Below, piece by piece: positions 5,038 to 9,697 of a stretch of 57,378 nt of DNA. Where the stretch lies: NCBI GenBank assembly GCA_964504365.1, contig CAZDDW010000001.1, forward strand, positions 1 to 57,378, in the 5' to 3' direction. This DNA is from an uncultured Gammaproteobacteria bacterium (GTDB lineage: Bacteria; Patescibacteriota; Patescibacteriia; UBA9934; CAZDDW01). The notes below the pieces were generated by a model, which searched no databases, was not told the origin of the DNA, and worked only from the letters and a program-made list of their open reading frames with translations. A program made the translations under genes and the position numbers. How positions within the stretch are numbered: the first letter of the stretch is position 1; each line of letters opens with the position of its first letter.

Positions 5038-5487
5038 ATGAGCAGTAAGTTCGAGATGATCGGACCCGGAAACCAGAACTATACGGTTTTGGCTGGAAGC
5101 AGTCGTGGCCGTGTTGGGTTCTGGATATCGGATCTTGATGGTCAGGCTCGTATTCGGGTCGAGTTCAGGAAAGGTGTTATCGGTAAGATCGAGGGCATAC
5201 TGCATTGGACTTGTTCTGGTCCTAGTGATTTTGTGGCTTACACCCGAAATCAGGGTGCAACAGAGCAGGCCTTGAAAGATGCGCTTACGGCTCTAGGTAT
5301 CAAGGAGATGGGGTTCGGTGATACGATGCCAGCCGGGCTGAGCCTGAACTTCGAAGCCCCACACTGGGCCATCGGCTTGATCATGCCCAAGTACGCGGGG
5401 TTGACTCGAGTACAAGTCGAGGCTAGGCAATCCTTGCCAGCCGTTCGTGTGCTGGCAGCCAGGATTCGCAACGCCCTGGTCACATAG
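5038..5487 (+). CDS. hypothetical protein, member of island paralog family
   Basis: Shares YTVLA...VG...RIRVE pattern with 5735 and 7949 products; stop TAG lies in the repeat tagttctttggaag. Confidence 0.75.
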   Translation: MSSKFEMIGPGNQNYTVLAGSSRGRVGFWISDLDGQARIRVEFRKGVIGKIEGILHWTCSGPSDFVAYTRNQGATEQALKDALTALGIKEMGFGDTMPAGLSLNFEAPHWAIGLIMPKYAGLTRVQVEARQSLPAVRVLAARIRNALVT

Positions 5488-5556
5488 TTCTTTGGAAGCG
5501 TTTTTGCGGCGCAATTCTCGCGCCGCACTTCAACATCCCGAGTACAGACTCGGGAT

Positions 5557-5671
5557 CCCACCAGAGTTTCGGAGAAAAAGTAGAGAGTAGAAAGTTGAAA
5601 GTAGAAAGGAATAAATTTGTCCCTCTCTACTATCTACCATCTACTTTCTACTTCTCGGAGTCCCTGGTGGG
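5557..5671 (+). repeat. CCAC-family hairpin copy H2, long form
   Basis: cccaccagagtttcggag...ctcggagtccctggtggg with heptad insert. Confidence 0.9.
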
Positions 5672-5734
5672 AGAAAATGTGAGTAAGCGGGAAAACAGTT
5701 CCGTGATCCTCACCAACGATCCCACAACAGCGCT

Positions 5735-6376
5735 ATGGAAGCGCTGAAACACGAGGAGGGCATCATGCCCAGCTACGCCTACGACGCCACGAGCAAGCGC
5801 CGGGACATCGCCAACGTGCCCGGCACCGAGCGCACCCACGAGTACCAGGTTCTGGCCATCACGCCCAAGGCCGTCGTGGCCCTGCGACACGACGTCGGTC
5901 GCAGCTGCTGGCGTATCCGCGTCGAGCCGCTGTCCGAGGCGGCCGCCGAGGAGATGCGCCCGTACTTCCCGAAGATGGTCGGTTGGAGTACCGACAGTGG
6001 CTGGAAGCATCCGGACCACCAGCCTCGGTTCAGCATCACCGCCCGGGACGCCGACACCAGGGACCGTGACAAGAAGCTGGTCCTGGCCCTCGAGGTCGCC
6101 CAGTCCGAGGGTCGGATCGTGCGTCGCTTCCGCGAGCACCTGCTCGAGCGGAAGACCGAAGCGCGTCCCGAGGGTGTGAACTGCACCCGGTGCGCGAACA
6201 CGGCCTGCGTGTTCAACGGCACGCCCACGATGATGCTCCCCGGCGAGCACGACCCGACCGGGTCCAAGCTGCGGCACAACACCTGCGGTGACGCGGACAT
6301 GGACGACGTCATCCTGAGCTGGCTGCGCCGCGACGCCGACACCGAGCTCGAGGCCGCCAAGGCCGCCGAGGCCTAG
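5735..6376 (+). CDS. hypothetical protein, paralog family, with C-terminal Cys cluster
   Basis: YQVLAITPKAVVALR...RIRVE; CTRCANTAC...HNTC possible metal site; true start may be ATG ~5765 after GGAGG. Confidence 0.75.
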   Translation: MEALKHEEGIMPSYAYDATSKRRDIANVPGTERTHEYQVLAITPKAVVALRHDVGRSCWRIRVEPLSEAAAEEMRPYFPKMVGWSTDSGWKHPDHQPRFSITARDADTRDRDKKLVLALEVAQSEGRIVRRFREHLLERKTEARPEGVNCTRCANTACVFNGTPTMMLPGEHDPTGSKLRHNTCGDADMDDVILSWLRRDADTELEAAKAAEA

Positions 6377-6476
6377 GGTAGCGCGCTAGACCAGTACAGC
6401 ACTGATCAACAAGTTCTTTTCGTTAACTTGCCTCGAGCACGTCGAGGCCTGCCCGGAACTATTCGTAGTTCCGGGA

Positions 6477-6591
6477 CCCACCAGAGTTTCTGAGAAAAGT
6501 AGAGAGTAGAAAGTTGAAGGTAGAAAGAAACAAATTTTGTCCCTTTCCACTATCTACCATCTACTTTCTACCCCTCAGAGTCCCTGGTGGG
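6477..6591 (+). repeat. CCAC-family hairpin copy H3, long form
   Basis: cccaccagagtttctgag...ctcagagtccctggtggg with heptad insert. Confidence 0.9.
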
Positions 6592-6634
6592 TCAATGGTT
6601 GGCCCAATTCCACGAAAGACATAAGGAGGTCATC

Positions 6635-6700
6635 ATGTGGAAACGTCAAATGAAGGCGGGAATCGGAACTCGCCATCGAAAAGAAAATCCGGTCAGCTGA
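6635..6700 (+). CDS. small SD-led ORF (21 aa, MWKRQMKAGIGTRHRKENPVS)
   Basis: Strong SD AAGGAGGT just upstream; same position relative to the pseudoknots as the leader ORFs of copies 1 and 3. Confidence 0.35.
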   Translation: MWKRQMKAGIGTRHRKENPVS

Positions 6701-6722
6701 GCACATGGAGTGCAAGCAGCTG

Positions 6723-6814
6723 GTGGGAATCAGATCCCACTGAAAATAAATCTGGTCGGCCTACGGGTCGGTGGAGGTTGGATCCCACTATAAATAAACC
6801 AACCGGCTTGAACG
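6723..6814 (+). promoter_or_regulatory. two tandem H-type pseudoknots
   Basis: gtggga/tcccac with loop atcaga pairing tctggt; gtgg/ccac with loop ggttgg pairing ccaacc; A-rich 10-nt linkers. Confidence 0.6.
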
Positions 6815-6839
6815 ACCGTGGGGCAATAAAGAGGGCTCT

Positions 6840-6865
6840 AACCCTCTGTTGTCAGAGGGTTTTTT
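6840..6865 (+). terminator. intrinsic terminator
   Basis: aaccctctg-ttgt-cagagggtt followed by T run. Confidence 0.7.
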
Positions 6866-7810: not shown

Positions 7811-7887
7811 AAATAGCAACACCCCTCTTTCGGCCGTTCGGCCACAAAGTTCTTTGGAAGCGTCTTGCGGTTAGTCTCCCTGACCGC

Positions 7888-7931
7888 CTTCCACCAGAGT
7901 TTCTGATTTCGATCGGAGTTCCTGGTGGAAG
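7888..7931 (+). repeat. CCAC-family hairpin copy H4, short form
   Basis: cttccaccagagtttctga-tttcga-tcggagttcctggtggaag. Confidence 0.9.
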
Positions 7932-7948
7932 CAAGGAGGAGAGACAAC

Positions 7949-8731
7949 ATGAAATCGTTCCAGATGTACGGTGCATATGGCAGCGATTACTTCGTTGTCG
8001 CGTGCACAAAGCTGGGAAAAATTGGTTGGAAAGACTCAGGTAAGGGCTATCAACACGTTGAGGTGCAGGGTCACGAAGAGGATGTCCTGGACTTTGATTT
8101 CGACAAGCTGTATGAGAAGTTGCCTGGCTGGAAGATCAACGAACTGTCCAACGCCTGGGTCTCGACCATGGTCCCGAAAGGACCTGAGCTCACAAAAGCA
8201 CTGGTTGAAGGTCTTCGTGCCTTGGGCTTAGAAGGGTTGGAGGTAAATCCAGAGGCTGGTCCGTGGTTCGGAGGAGTGGTCAGGAAGGCTTTCGGCCAAG
8301 GCCCATTCGACATGGAGGATGTGTCTGGTCTCAAGTACACAGTGGTTGTTGCCACACCTTGGGCCAGGGTCGGACTGAGAACCGATCAGGATCATCAAGT
8401 TGTCCGTATCGAGATGGATGACGGGCCAATGGCTTACGCAGCTGACAGAGGCTTCACTCCAAACTGGGAGTTTTTTAAAGGATCTGGACAACGACCTATC
8501 TGCTTCACAGCTACGGCCTTCAGTAAAGAGCAGGCCGAACAGTTGTTGACCAGCGCATTTCGGGCAATCGAAGCTGAATTCGATCTGCTTAACCCTGACT
8601 TGACCGAGACCAGGGTCAATCCGGAGATCAGTGGTTGGATCATGGAGTTGATCAAGGCTGAGTCCAGGATTGAGTTGAGAGCCATGCTCGATCACGCCCG
8701 CAAGTTAGCTGCTCGCATCAAAGTTGCATAG
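7949..8731 (+). CDS. hypothetical protein with two tandem copies of the island paralog domain
   Basis: SD AAGGAGG; halves FQMYG..DYFVVA..GKIG and FDMED..KYTVVVATPWARVG; both end in (V/L)NPE..(P/G)W. Confidence 0.8.
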   Translation: MKSFQMYGAYGSDYFVVACTKLGKIGWKDSGKGYQHVEVQGHEEDVLDFDFDKLYEKLPGWKINELSNAWVSTMVPKGPELTKALVEGLRALGLEGLEVNPEAGPWFGGVVRKAFGQGPFDMEDVSGLKYTVVVATPWARVGLRTDQDHQVVRIEMDDGPMAYAADRGFTPNWEFFKGSGQRPICFTATAFSKEQAEQLLTSAFRAIEAEFDLLNPDLTETRVNPEISGWIMELIKAESRIELRAMLDHARKLAARIKVA

Positions 8732-8770
8732 TTCTTTGGAAGCGTCTTGCGGCGCAATTCTCGCGCCGCA

Positions 8771-8882
8771 CTTCCACCAGAGTTTCTGAGAAAAGTAGAG
8801 AGTAGAAAGTTGAAAGTAGAAAGAAACAAATTTAGTTCCTTTCTACCATCTACTTTCTACCCCTCGGAATCCCTGGTGGAAG
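8771..8882 (+). repeat. CCAC-family hairpin copy H5, long form lacking one heptad
   Basis: cttccaccag...ctggtggaag; right arm 7 nt shorter than H1-H3. Confidence 0.9.
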
Positions 8883-8889
8883 TATGAAT

Positions 8890-8959
8890 GGAGGTAATTA
8901 AGATGGAACAGTTTGAATGGTGGTAGCCGGACCACGTTAAAAAAGCGGTCGCTTGAGCG
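8890..8959 (+). promoter_or_regulatory. SD-led 7-codon ORF (MEQFEWW, 8903-8926) overlapping an H-type pseudoknot
   Basis: GGAGGT 8890-8895; gtggt/accac stem; loop gccg pairs with cggt 8946-8949; same gcttgagcg tail as copy 1. Confidence 0.6.
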
Positions 8960-9054
8960 AAGTTGATGAGATAATATTGGTAAATAGTTTTTAAAAAAAT
9001 TATTTACTTCTTGTTCTAATAGGACATCAACACAGTTCAAGTCTGGCTTAAGAT

Positions 9055-9580
9055 GCCTGACGGACCAGGTCAGAAAAGGTGCGTTCAGCCTTTCAATAAT
9101 TGGACAAAGCGCCACCAGGGTAGCCTATGGTTTGTGGTGGTGGTTGAAGCGTGGCAATTGTCTGTTGTGTGGAAACCGGAATCGAGTCCGGACAAGTGAC
9201 TGGACATGTCAGAGTGTAATTAGGATCCCCATGAGGGACCCTGTCCTCGTAATGAGGTAAACACTCACCATATCTGCTTGGCAAGCAGGTCCGTGGGCAT
9301 TCACGGATGAGGACCAATGAACAAGTGAAATTAGCAAAGCCTTGTTAAGTCTCATTGAGACGACAGCCTTCCTTTCTAGCAAAAAGTAAGGTGAGGGAAC
9401 GTGACCCAACACGCTCAAGGTAGATAGCTTTGGAATCTTGTTTAGCGGGATTAGCCTCAGGAGGGTATTAGTTCCGAGCGAAAGCACGGACAAAAGCCTA
9501 GGCAGTGGGTATATTGTGATGGTATAGACTGGGTTCATGGAGCCTTTATAATGCTTTTCCCCTGCTGCGACAGATCCTGA
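9055..9580 (+). ncRNA. large structured non-coding RNA, copy 3
   Basis: Colinear with 1280-1930; 72/75 nt identical core; 3' end cccctgctgcgacagatcctga. Confidence 0.75.
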
Positions 9581-9651
9581 AAGAGATATTATCTCTTGGC
9601 CGTCCTGGCCATAGTTCTTTGGAAGCGTCTCATGGTCAGTCTCCCTGACCA

Positions 9652-9697
9652 CCTTCCACCAGAGTTTCTGATTTCGATCGGAGTCTTTGGTGGGAGG
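9652..9697 (+). repeat. CCAC-family hairpin copy H6, short form, 3' arm covers the SD
   Basis: ccttccaccagagtttctga-tttcga-tcggagtctttggtgggagg. Confidence 0.9.

What the first reader, a model, noticed from the sequence alone, without database searches (positions are those of the whole stretch)
5485..9697. Stop-codon-anchored junction that folds as a tRNA-like minihelix ending ACCA, or switches into the SD-proximal hairpin
(ta/aa)gttctttggaagcgt-[hairpin]-cttcca occurs at about 5485, 7847, 8729 and 9612. It supplies the TAG of two genes and follows RNA copies 2 and 3 within about 30-40 nt. At 7857, 8738 and 9621, ggaag/cttcc stacks on a 7-8 bp hairpin with a ~7-nt loop and is followed by ACCA, giving about 12-13 coaxial bp, the geometry RNase P recognises. 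The same cttcca can instead pair with the downstream ctggtggaag or ggtgggagg arm, which in H6 contains the SD. The two folds are mutually exclusive. The loop is not TTCGA and the 5485 copy ends cttcaaca, so this is tentative.
Basis: partly seen in the sequence, partly recalled or inferred. Interest (0 to 1): 0.65.

Follow-up and report, generated by a model that had tools for sequence, protein, structure and literature searches.

The report
Repeat junction, not a tRNA mimic
The four-copy motif is real. Its "CTTCC-ACCA" tail is the base-paired 5' strand of a conserved hairpin that separates the genes of a variable gene array in an ultra-small bacterium, so it is a repeat junction and not a tRNA-like RNase P signal.

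Summary
Observation confirmed. GTTCTTTGGAAGCGT occurs exactly four times in the 1.07-Mb genome (5487, 7849, 8731, 9614). It supplies the TAG of two genes, which are paralogous, and lies 30-35 nt after large-RNA copies 2 and 3. In each copy it is followed by a 7-8 bp hairpin and CTTC(C).

The RNase P / tRNA-minihelix reading is not supported.
- CTTCC-ACCAG is the 5' strand of the island's recurrent "H" hairpin. There are 14 copies here and more in a sister genome. Its pairing to CTGGTGGAAG is backed by covariation: 8 of 12 pairs change on both sides, and 0/500 shuffles reach the score.
- In H variants ACCA becomes ACCT, ACTT or GCCA, with compensating partners.
- The minihelix fold costs about 13 kcal/mol and has about zero ensemble probability. 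It carries a 5-7 nt bulge and no T-loop, and no tRNA model detects it.
- The four copies are two duplicated pairs, so they are not independent.

What it is: the upstream half of a two-hairpin intercistronic module. Every H is preceded 1-4 nt upstream by a GC-rich hairpin of variable sequence. The 15-mer resembles a shortened H 3' arm (13/14 matches, p about 0.01-0.03). It is absent from the homologous array of a same-genus genome, so it is dispensable.

Function is inferred: RNA punctuation (processing or stabilising) and/or a cassette-boundary scar. No transcript data could be obtained.

The parts
5485..5501 (+). J copy 1: TAG stop of ORF 5038-5487, overlapping the 15-mer GTTCTTTGGAAGCGT (5487-5501)
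5505..5527 (+). Hairpin 1, type A (TGCGGCGC-AATTCTC-GCGCCGCA). It is followed by CTTCAAC (5528-5534), a truncated start of the H 5' arm
5535..5556 (+). Second hairpin 1 (ATCCCGAGT-ACAG-ACTCGGGAT), abutting H
5556..5672 (+). H hairpin with a long heptad-repeat apex. The base is TCCCACCAG paired with CTGGTGGGA
6412..6431 (+). Degenerate J-like block AAGTTCTTTTCGTTAACTTG ahead of two hairpins and H(6478). GGAAG and CTTCC are both absent
7849..7863 (+). J copy 2: the 15-mer, 35 nt after the conserved 3' motif of large RNA copy 2
7867..7887 (+). Hairpin 1, type B (GCGGTTAG-TCTCC-CTGACCGC)
7888..7931 (+). Short H hairpin. SD AAGGAGG lies at 7933-7939 and ATG at 7949
8729..8745 (+). J copy 3: TAG stop of ORF 7925/7949-8731, overlapping the 15-mer (8731-8745)
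8748..8770 (+). Hairpin 1, type A, same sequence as at 5505-5527
   Evidence: (D12)
8771..8882 (+). H hairpin with a long heptad apex. CTTCCACCAG (8771-8780) pairs with CTGGTGGAAG (8873-8882)
9614..9628 (+). J copy 4: the 15-mer, 30 nt after the conserved 3' motif of large RNA copy 3. Its TAG (9612-9614) ends no ORF of 50 aa or more
9633..9651 (+). Hairpin 1, type B (TGGTCAG-TCTCC-CTGACCA). Relative to copy 2 it has one compensatory C-G to U-A change and one U.G to C-G change
9652..9697 (+). Short H hairpin. CCTTCCACCAGAG pairs with CTTTGGTGGGAGG. The 3' arm overlaps the SD-like GGGAGG, and the start ATG is at 9711

Best explanation
The junction is not an autonomous tRNA-like element. It is the upstream half of the compound two-hairpin module that separates the units of a long, single-strand gene and RNA array. 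The array runs from contig C13 at about 24430 to window position about 13200.

Each module has two parts:
- 'Hairpin 1', a GC-rich stem-loop whose structure is kept while its sequence varies. It travels with the upstream unit.
- 'H', which abuts hairpin 1. H has a fixed base (CCACCAG...CTGGTGG, extended by 2-4 flanking pairs), an internal loop, an inner helix and an exchangeable apex.

In the four J copies, hairpin 1 is preceded by (A)GTTCTTTGGAAGC. This block looks like a copy of the H 3' arm shortened by 2 nt, so by descent it is complementary to the first bases of the H 5' arm (CTTCCA).

In the complete transcript H wins. CTTCC-ACCAG is paired with the downstream arm, and hairpin 1 stacks next to it.

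Shown:
- the anatomy of the module;
- the covariation of H, including the ACCA positions;
- the energetic dominance of H;
- the absence of the 15-mer from the homologous array of a same-genus genome.

Inferred (about 40% for this mechanism):
- The module works on the polycistronic RNA as punctuation.
- H is a roughly 20-bp double-stranded element with an internal loop, of the kind RNase III cuts. The genome has an rnc gene.
- Hairpin 1 is left as the protective 3' stem-loop of the upstream segment.
- Only then, or before the H 3' arm has been transcribed, can UGGAAG re-pair with CUUCCA and lengthen hairpin 1 into a roughly 14-bp terminal clamp.
- The repeated modules also provide the homology through which cargo is exchanged between genomes.
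For: - Exact four-copy 15-mer, unique in the genome.
- All 14 H copies of the array are preceded 1-4 nt upstream by a hairpin of -9 to -23 kcal/mol, in at least 8 different sequences.
- H outer helix across 20 copies from two genomes: 88.8% of cells paired, 8 of 12 pairs with changes on both sides, 0/500 shuffles reach the score, and slid controls give 33-53% paired (raw table).
- The minimum-energy folds put CTTCC in H. Forcing the minihelix costs 12.7-13.8 kcal/mol.
- J-left AGTTCTT--TGGAAGC against the H 3' arm AGTTCCTGGTGGAAGC gives 13/14 matches. Shuffles reach this in 7/5000 for the single arm, and in 10-30/1000 when the best of 14 arms is taken.
- The same locus in same-genus genome G002 carries 10 hairpin1+H modules (CTACCAGAG, CCACCTGAG, CCACTTAAG) but no GTTCTTT at all. 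G001 uses other hairpins. No cargo protein is shared.
- A second array in the same genome has the same hairpin1+H design with a different H sequence.
- J plus hairpin 1 is about 96% identical behind two genes that share only 29% protein identity. The module is therefore homogenised or constrained independently of its cargo.
- RNase III gene present.
- The island ends in a canonical terminator at 13168-13196, so the organism does use hairpin plus U-run terminators. The J hairpins lack the U-run.
Against: - No transcript data.
- The similarity of J-left to the H 3' arm is only moderately significant (p about 0.01-0.03). It is the same signal as its complementarity to CTTCCA, so the two do not add up.
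- G.U counts do not clearly separate an RNA structure from a DNA-strand structure. There are 20 G.U cells on the + strand, against a conserved A.C mismatch that would be G.U on the other strand.
- The exact conservation of the 15-mer could reflect gene conversion among repeats and not function.
- One public contig (L019) joins the 8729 copy to the sequence downstream of the 5485 copy. This is either an assembly artefact or exchange between copies.
Confidence: 0.5

Rival explanations
1. DNA-level cassette-boundary scar only. The H hairpins are the sites, or simply the homology, at which cargo is exchanged. The 15-mer is a truncated duplicate of an H 3' arm left by such an event and then copied among four junctions by gene conversion. 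It has no RNA function of its own.
For: - Cargo at this locus differs completely between same-genus genomes, while the hairpin design is kept.
- GC content is mosaic, 0.49-0.63 against about 0.46 for the genome.
- The left edge of homology is sharp, at CA(T/A)AG.
- J-left resembles the H 3' arm, including positions that do not pair.
- J-left is absent from G002.
- Truncated H 5' starts are duplicated around hairpin 1: CTTCAAC at 5528 here, and CCCTACC repeats in G002.
- Contig L019 switches between J copies.
Against: - No integrase lies next to the array. The two tyrosine recombinases are on other contigs.
- A scar would be expected to decay, yet the 15-mer is identical in all four copies while the flanks have diverged to 29% protein identity.
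- The model does not explain why every unit keeps its own GC hairpin abutting H.
Confidence: 0.25
2. Riboregulatory switch. J-left (a'), the H 5' arm (a) and the H 3' arm (a') form an attenuator-like three-segment device. When J-left captures CTTCCA the SD-proximal arm is released, which couples downstream translation to upstream termination or to co-transcriptional folding.
For: - The complementarity is real: -7.9 to -8.4 kcal/mol, with shuffles reaching it 4-6% of the time.
- In the long-apex copies about 100 nt are transcribed between CTTCC and its final partner.
- The 3' arm overlaps GGGAGG in the 9612 copy.
Against: - The alternative fold is about 13 kcal/mol worse, with about zero equilibrium population.
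- It exists only in three non-independent copies and in none of the other 11 modules, nor in G002.
- There is no covariation, because both partners are invariant.
- The two copies that follow an ORF are not the ones next to an SD. The two next to an SD follow a non-coding RNA, so there is no terminating ribosome.
Confidence: 0.1
3. tRNA-like minihelix processed by RNase P. GGAAG/CTTCC stacked on hairpin 1 and followed by ACCA mimics the acceptor/T arm, and is cut 5' of the G.
For: - The genome has a class A RNase P RNA.
- 42 of 43 tRNA genes encode CCA, many as ACCA.
- In isolation the segment folds as 6+8 bp with a 3' CCA overhang.
- A break on the 5' strand between 'acceptor' and 'T stem' is topologically tRNA-like.
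Against: - ACCA is base-paired in a covarying helix and is not conserved as ACCA in H variants.
- There is no T-loop or elbow. The loops are AAUUCUC and UCUCC, whereas RNase P measures from the tRNA elbow (PMC4919913).
- The helices are 5+8 bp separated by a 5-7 nt bulge, not a 7+5 continuous stack.
- ARAGORN and Rfam tRNA, tmRNA and other models find nothing.
- No tRNA of the genome ends in CTTCCACCA.
Confidence: 0.03
4. Weak intrinsic-terminator tail. The U-rich start of the 15-mer (AGUUCUUUGG) is the tail of a small GC hairpin that ends large RNA copies 2 and 3.
For: The consensus scan flags TGGCCGTCCTGGCCA plus TAGTTCTTTG at 9597-9611. Copy 2 has GGCCGTTCGGCC 5 nt before the block.
Against: - The stems are only 4-6 bp and the tail is interrupted.
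- The two gene-following copies have no such hairpin.
- The number of terminator-like hits equals the shuffle expectation (14 against 12.7).
- True terminators here have 7-13 bp stems and clean U-runs (6836-6857 by reading, where the scan lists it only on the minus strand; 13168-13196).
Confidence: 0.05

Closest known systems
Intercistronic RNase III processing signals of phage T7 early mRNA, and RNase III-excised intervening sequences of 23S rRNA (own knowledge; T7 early and RNase III are mentioned in PMC3082872)
   Same: - Hairpins of about two helical turns with an internal loop lie between the cistrons of one long transcript.
- After cutting, the upstream RNA keeps a 3' stem-loop.
- The long apex inserted in several H copies belongs to the heptad hairpin family that elsewhere in this genome carries a 23S_rRNA_IVP gene.
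   Different: - No cleavage is shown.
- The sequence is unrelated.
- Each site has an extra, abutting GC hairpin.
- The sites bound exchangeable cargo of foreign composition.
Integron attC sites and integrase-less cassette arrays (CALINs)
   Same: - Imperfect hairpins with a conserved base, an internal unpaired spacer and a highly variable apex.
- One orientation, between promoterless cassettes of varied origin behind one promoter.
- The site can supply a stop codon.
- Cargo differs between close relatives.
   Different: - There is no RYYYAAC/GTTRRRY core. The base is CCACCAG/CTGGTGG.
- No intI lies nearby.
- There is an additional hairpin 1.
- Structured RNAs are among the cargo.
REP/BIME-type extragenic palindromes acting as mRNA 3' stabilisers
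   Same: GC-rich palindromes repeated in intergenic regions of operons, homogenised within a genome and different between genomes.
   Different: - Confined to two arrays, not dispersed.
- Two-hairpin architecture.
- No RAYT gene was looked for.
tRNA-like processing signals (mitochondrial tRNA punctuation, plant t-elements, the MALAT1 mascRNA; own knowledge)
   Same: A stem-loop plus CCA-like tail placed at gene or RNA boundaries.
   Different: The defining single-stranded NCCA, the T-loop/elbow and the continuous 12-bp stack are all missing or contradicted here.
Transcription-attenuator style 1:2 / 2:3 alternative hairpins
   Same: Three segments a'-a-a', with mutually exclusive pairings.
   Different: The energies are very unequal (about 13 kcal/mol). 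No leader peptide or ligand is tied to this junction. It is not conserved in the other modules.

Membership tests
tRNA-like RNase P minihelix substrate | Single-stranded 3' RCCA after the acceptor helix | tested here: not met
   ACCA is paired in H. The columns holding A, C, C, A covary with their partners. The tetranucleotide is replaced by ACCT, ACTT or GCCA in variants.
tRNA-like RNase P minihelix substrate | Continuous acceptor/T-stem stack of about 12 bp measured from a T-loop elbow (PMC4919913) | tested here: not met
   The helices are 5(6)+7/8 bp, interrupted by a 5-7 nt bulge. The loops are AAUUCUC or UCUCC, not UUCRANY.
tRNA-like RNase P minihelix substrate | Recognised by tRNA or tmRNA models | tested here: not met
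   ARAGORN finds none at the junctions, even at 80% thresholds. Rfam has no tRNA-clan hit at E<=1.
tRNA-like RNase P minihelix substrate | Cleavage by RNase P at the first base of the acceptor helix | not testable with these tools
Integron attC site | Inverse core / core RYYYAAC ... GTTRRRY | tested here: not met
   The H base is CCACCAG...CTGGTGG, and the 15-mer starts GTTCTTT.
Integron attC site | Adjacent intI integrase with attI and Pc | tested here: not met
   The only PF00589 matches are on contigs C4 and C9. A near-consensus promoter does head the array. A short assembly gap between C13 and C1 remains unseen.
Integron attC site | Imperfect hairpin with conserved base and variable apex bounding exchangeable cassettes | tested here: met
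   for the hairpin. for different cargo at the same locus in the same genus.
Intrinsic (Rho-independent) terminator | GC-rich hairpin directly followed by a U-run | tested here: not met
   Hairpin 1 is followed by CUUCCACCAGAG. The scan does not call it, while it does call the true terminator at 13168-13196.
RNase III processing site | About 20 bp of double-stranded RNA, often with an internal loop | tested here: met
   Short H has a 10-13 bp outer helix, a 3x3 or 1x1 internal loop and a 7 bp inner helix. The rnc gene is present.
RNase III processing site | Cleavage by RNase III | not testable with these tools
   No RNA data.

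The most novel reading that the evidence does not exclude
The junction may be a processing-coupled device for forming 3' ends. While H is intact, CUUCCA belongs to H. Once H is cut, or before its 3' arm exists, the H-arm mimic UGGAAG captures CUUCCA and converts hairpin 1 into a roughly 14-bp terminal clamp ending in CCA. This would fix and protect the 3' ends of two cargo classes, the large structured RNA and the paralogous protein gene. 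The array would then be a previously undescribed, integrase-less, hairpin-punctuated gene-cassette system of ultra-small bacteria.
Probability: 0.15. Interest if true: 0.6.

Novelty: new variant of a known kind. Interest (0 to 1): 0.3.

Why it matters
The junction itself matters little. It removes an attractive but wrong reading (bacterial "tRNA punctuation" by RNase P). It also shows that the conserved ACCA is a helix strand.

Its value lies in the anatomy of the array around it. A syntenic, hypervariable locus in a CPR genus carries foreign-composition genes and large structured RNAs, separated by a two-hairpin module that is homogenised within a genome and differs between genomes. The 15-mer is a lineage-specific addition to that module. 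It looks like a piece of the module's own 3' arm, which gives a handle on where the units are joined.

If the modules prove to be RNA processing sites and/or recombination substrates, this would be a gene-capture or operon-punctuation system built from parts other than those of integrons.

Tried and rejected
- **Relatives of the junction elsewhere.** All searches came back empty.
  - BLAST of the 96-nt J+H unit in 60 related genomes found only the genome's own copies.
  - Exact-pattern scans for J+CTTCCACCAGAG found nothing in viral and metagenome contigs.
  - Exact-pattern scans for short H found nothing in genome and viral contigs.
- **Protein route.**
  - The 149-aa protein has no homologues except itself.
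  - Dikinase relatives exist. The best one (50% identity, L005) has the leader and large RNA upstream of the dikinase but no J or H.
- **Population variation.** 19 public contigs carry the 260-aa gene but are 99.95-100% identical to the window, so they give no covariation. The only differences are a CT/TTT change in the bulge of the 5485 copy and one contig that switches between J copies.
- **Long-range partner for the 15-mer.** A search of the large RNAs and downstream regions found no hit at homologous positions in the paralogous RNAs.
- **Hairpin-1 loop as an anti-SD mimic.** Only the 7847 copy stands out (-11.3 kcal/mol, 2% of shuffles). The others do not. Rejected.
- **Stop-codon read-through.** The frame after TAG 8729 stays open for 51 codons, but by reading the sequence it closes after about 30 codons at the 5485 copy, and there is no protein signal. 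Not pursued.
- **Copy of a tRNA 3' end**, as in the tRNA-docked mini-cassettes noted earlier for this genome. No tRNA ends in CTTCCACCA, and the hairpins are not T-arms.
- **H 3'-arm remnants upstream of hairpin 1 as a general feature.** Only the J copies show them.
- **GTTCTTT as a general post-stop motif.** The enrichment is modest: 7 on the + strand of the roughly 18-kb array, with about 3 expected from the genome-wide count of 300 on both strands. One of the 7 is a terminator tail.

Full report
**Setting**

The window is the first 57 kb of contig C1 of a 1,065,924-base, 98.9%-complete genome in 19 contigs. The genome has a class A RNase P RNA and 43 tRNA genes. The nearest named relatives of one island protein are Patescibacteria.

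Positions 1 to about 13200 have mosaic, raised G+C: 0.49-0.63, against about 0.46 for the genome. All genes there lie on one strand.

The same kind of sequence fills the end of contig C13 (about 24430-29396). It starts behind a near-consensus promoter, TTGACA-17-TATACT. The array ends at a canonical terminator at 13168-13196. C13 breaks off inside a repeated small-RNA motif, and C1 begins at what looks like the end of that motif. I therefore read the two as one array of about 18 kb with a short assembly gap. This is an inference.

**The observation**

- GTTCTTTGGAAGCGT is exact at 5487, 7849, 8731 and 9614, and nowhere else in the genome.
- Its first G is the G of a TAG. That TAG ends ORFs 5038-5487 and 7925-8731.
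- The conserved 3' motif of large-RNA copies 2 and 3 ends 35 and 30 nt upstream of the other two copies (D11).
- Each 15-mer is followed by a 5-7 nt linker, a 7-8 bp GC-rich hairpin and CTTC(C).
The loop is 7 nt in only two copies and 5 nt in the other two. A 5-7 nt bulge separates GGAAG from the hairpin on the 5' strand. Folded alone, the helix is UGGAAG:CUUCCA with only CCA overhanging. The 5485 copy has a second hairpin between CTTCAAC and the next element.

The four copies are not four independent observations.

- The two genes that end on the TAG are paralogues. The 149-aa protein aligns end to end with the C-terminal half of the 260-aa protein at 29% identity, E=5e-5. Behind both, the 15-mer plus hairpin is about 96% identical (D12, 44).
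- The two copies behind the large RNAs are part of an 86%-identical 96-nt duplicate (D6).
- Between the two pairs, CA(T/A)AGTTCTTTGGAAGCGTCTTGCGG and CCGC(A)CTTCCACCAGAGTTTCTGA are shared, while the top of the hairpin differs.
- The left edge of homology is sharp at CA(T/A)AG in every comparison.

**What the CTTCC-ACCA belongs to**

The array holds 14 copies of a hairpin I call H. Its 5' arm is CCACCAGAGTTTCTGA and its 3' arm is TCGGAGTCCCTGGTGG. The apex is either a 4-6 nt loop or a roughly 75-nt heptad-repeat hairpin.

I counted pairs across these 14 copies and then across 20 copies, adding six from the same-genus genome G002. The two nine-base arm ends of each copy and their five flanking bases were joined by an artificial GAAA linker so that they align without gaps. 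The results:

- The outer helix is paired in 88.8% of cells.
- 8 of 12 pairs show changes on both sides.
- No shuffle of 500 reaches the observed covariation score or the observed share of paired cells.
- Sliding the partner strand drops pairing to 33-53% (raw table).

The three flanking pairs that involve the CTT of CTTCC covary: C-G, U-A and U.G at -1; U-A, C-G and A-U at -2; C-G, G-C and G.U at -3. Three of the four columns that spell ACCA also vary together with their partners: A-U to G-C, C-G to U-A and A-U to U-A; the first C is an invariant C-G. In H variants the tetranucleotide reads GCCA (697), ACTT (10385, 11396), ACCT (12577 and G002) or stays ACCA behind a changed neighbour (CTACCAG in G002). 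The 3' arm follows each change.

ACCA is therefore constrained as a helix strand, not as a free 3' tail.

**Energetics**

For the three full junctions, the minimum-energy fold places CTTCCACCAG in H and leaves GGAAG unpaired. Forcing GGAAG:CTTCC costs 13.0, 12.7 and 13.8 kcal/mol, and the ensemble probability of those pairs is 0.0. Even then ACCAG stays paired to CTGGT, so a free ACCA would need H to be fully opened or cut away.

**Tests for tRNA-likeness**

ARAGORN finds nothing at the junctions at default, 95% or 80% thresholds. Rfam at E<=1 gives only meaningless microRNA hits on the heptad hairpins. The loops (AAUUCUC, UCUCC) are not T-loops, and RNase P measures its substrates from the tRNA elbow along the T-stem/acceptor stack (PMC4919913).

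The premise that this organism's RNase P sees encoded CCA is sound: 42 of 43 tRNA genes encode it. However, no tRNA ends in CTTCCACCA.

**The general module**

Every one of the 14 H copies is preceded, 1-4 nt upstream, by a hairpin of -9 to -23 kcal/mol, in at least eight unrelated sequences. Once the flanking pairs of H are counted, the two helices abut with no linker.

Hairpin 1 travels with the upstream unit. The two paralogous genes share one version, the two paralogous RNAs share another, and the RNA version differs between its copies by one compensatory C-G to U-A change.

The same design heads a second array on the other strand at C1:171.5-175.8 kb. There, variable hairpin 1 sits next to CCCATCAGAGCACATGAT...GTGTTCTGTGATGGG, behind its own TTGACA promoter.

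**Is the upstream GGAAG partner part of the module?**

No. I compared the 20 nt before hairpin 1 with the 12 nt after it.

- Only the three J copies show complementarity: -7.9 to -8.4 kcal/mol, with 4-6% of shuffles as good.
- Ten of the other eleven modules show none. The one exception (C13:27690, -6.8 kcal/mol, 3.7% of shuffles) involves an upstream stretch that itself reads as part of another hairpin.

The locus is syntenic in relatives. In G001, G002 and G003 the homologue of the 407-aa flanking gene is preceded by a high-GC block.

- G002 carries ten hairpin1+H modules but not a single GTTCTTT.
- G001 uses different hairpins.
- None of five island proteins has a tblastn match in these three loci.

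The 15-mer is thus a lineage-specific, dispensable addition to a conserved module at a hypervariable locus.

**Origin of the 15-mer**

AGTTCTT--TGGAAGC matches the 3' arm of H(7891), AGTTCCTGGTGGAAGC, at 13 of 14 positions with one 2-nt gap.

- 7 of 5000 shuffles do as well against that one arm.
- 10-30 of 1000 do as well when the best of all 14 arms is taken.

This is suggestive, not conclusive. It explains the complementarity to CTTCCA by descent, so the two signals must not be counted twice. No other module has such a remnant.

**Mechanism**

What is shown is the anatomy of the module, the conserved H helix and the dispensability of the 15-mer. What I infer follows.

The module most likely acts on the long transcript. 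H has the size and internal loop of RNase III substrates, and the genome has rnc. The long apexes belong to the hairpin family that elsewhere in the window carries a 23S-rRNA-IVS protein gene. Hairpin 1 is placed exactly where a protective 3' stem-loop would be left. After a cut, or before the H 3' arm is transcribed, UGGAAG could clamp CUUCCA. I put about 40% on this mechanism.

The main rival is that the 15-mer is only a recombination scar, with H acting as the substrate or homology for cargo exchange. That reading fits the hypervariable cargo, the duplicated truncated H starts (CTTCAAC here, CCCTACC in G002) and a public contig that switches between J copies. No integrase is adjacent. The two readings are compatible with each other.

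The switch reading and the RNase P reading get 10% and 3%.

**Limits**

All 19 public contigs that carry the 260-aa gene are essentially identical to the window. Pattern and BLAST searches found no diverged relatives of the junction. The 15-mer therefore cannot be tested by covariation.

Noticed in passing
genome contigs C1:65756, C1:112198(-), C1:274966, C1:275422, C3:5135(-), C3:39931(-), C4:8251, C13:7583: Seven tRNA genes, plus one further CCA site at C3:39931 that is not a called tRNA, are followed directly after CCA by (T/G)CCTTCGC. Further on comes a shared GCTTCGG(C/A)TGGCAGGCC-type block, in some cases with a long hairpin between. This looks like a conserved tRNA-trailer element.
   Followed up: partly
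whole genome: 42 of 43 tRNA genes encode the 3' CCA, most often as ACCA.
   Followed up: yes
C13:26803-26940, 27803-27950, 28945-29080, 29345-29396; window 10426-10570: A structured motif of about 130 nt sits between H and the start codon in five units. It reads ...CCTATCCCGCAGTGAAGT...CCCCGGGCGT...AAAATAGGAACCGTC.TAGTGGCGGAAAC. It has no Rfam match in the window copy. Contig C13 breaks inside one copy.
   Followed up: no
L011 (G001:C12 about 9000-17000), L012 (G002:C87, locus 8000-17000), L013 (G003:C1, locus 6000-12000): The locus between the DHH-like gene and the 407-aa gene is a high-GC variable block in three related genomes. The cargo is unrelated, and each genome has its own flavour of punctuation hairpins.
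   Followed up: partly
L005:2200-3190: A dikinase homologue at 50% identity, in an unrelated contig, is preceded by the same kind of leader-peptide region and large RNA (shared CCTAGGCGACGGGTAGAT...GCCGCGACAA motifs). The RNA therefore goes with the dikinase module, and the J/H hairpins do not.
   Followed up: partly
window 8729-8884: The frame behind TAG 8729 stays open for 51 codons through hairpin 1 and the heptad hairpin. The GTTGAAAG variant heptad removes the TAG that a regular GTAGAAAG would put in that frame. By reading the sequence, the 5485 copy closes after about 30 codons.
   Followed up: partly
L019:3143-3295 against window 8727-8774 and 5483-5636: One public contig continues from the 8729 junction into the sequence that follows the 5485 junction. 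Another (L006) has the 8729-type CT linker in the 5485 copy. This is either assembly switching at the 50-nt repeat or real exchange between copies.
   Followed up: no
window 7873-7881 against 7933-7946: The loop of hairpin 1 (GUCUCCCU) is complementary to the SD region AGGAGGAGAGAC of the next gene (-11.3 kcal/mol, 2% of shuffles). This is not reproduced in the other copies.
   Followed up: yes
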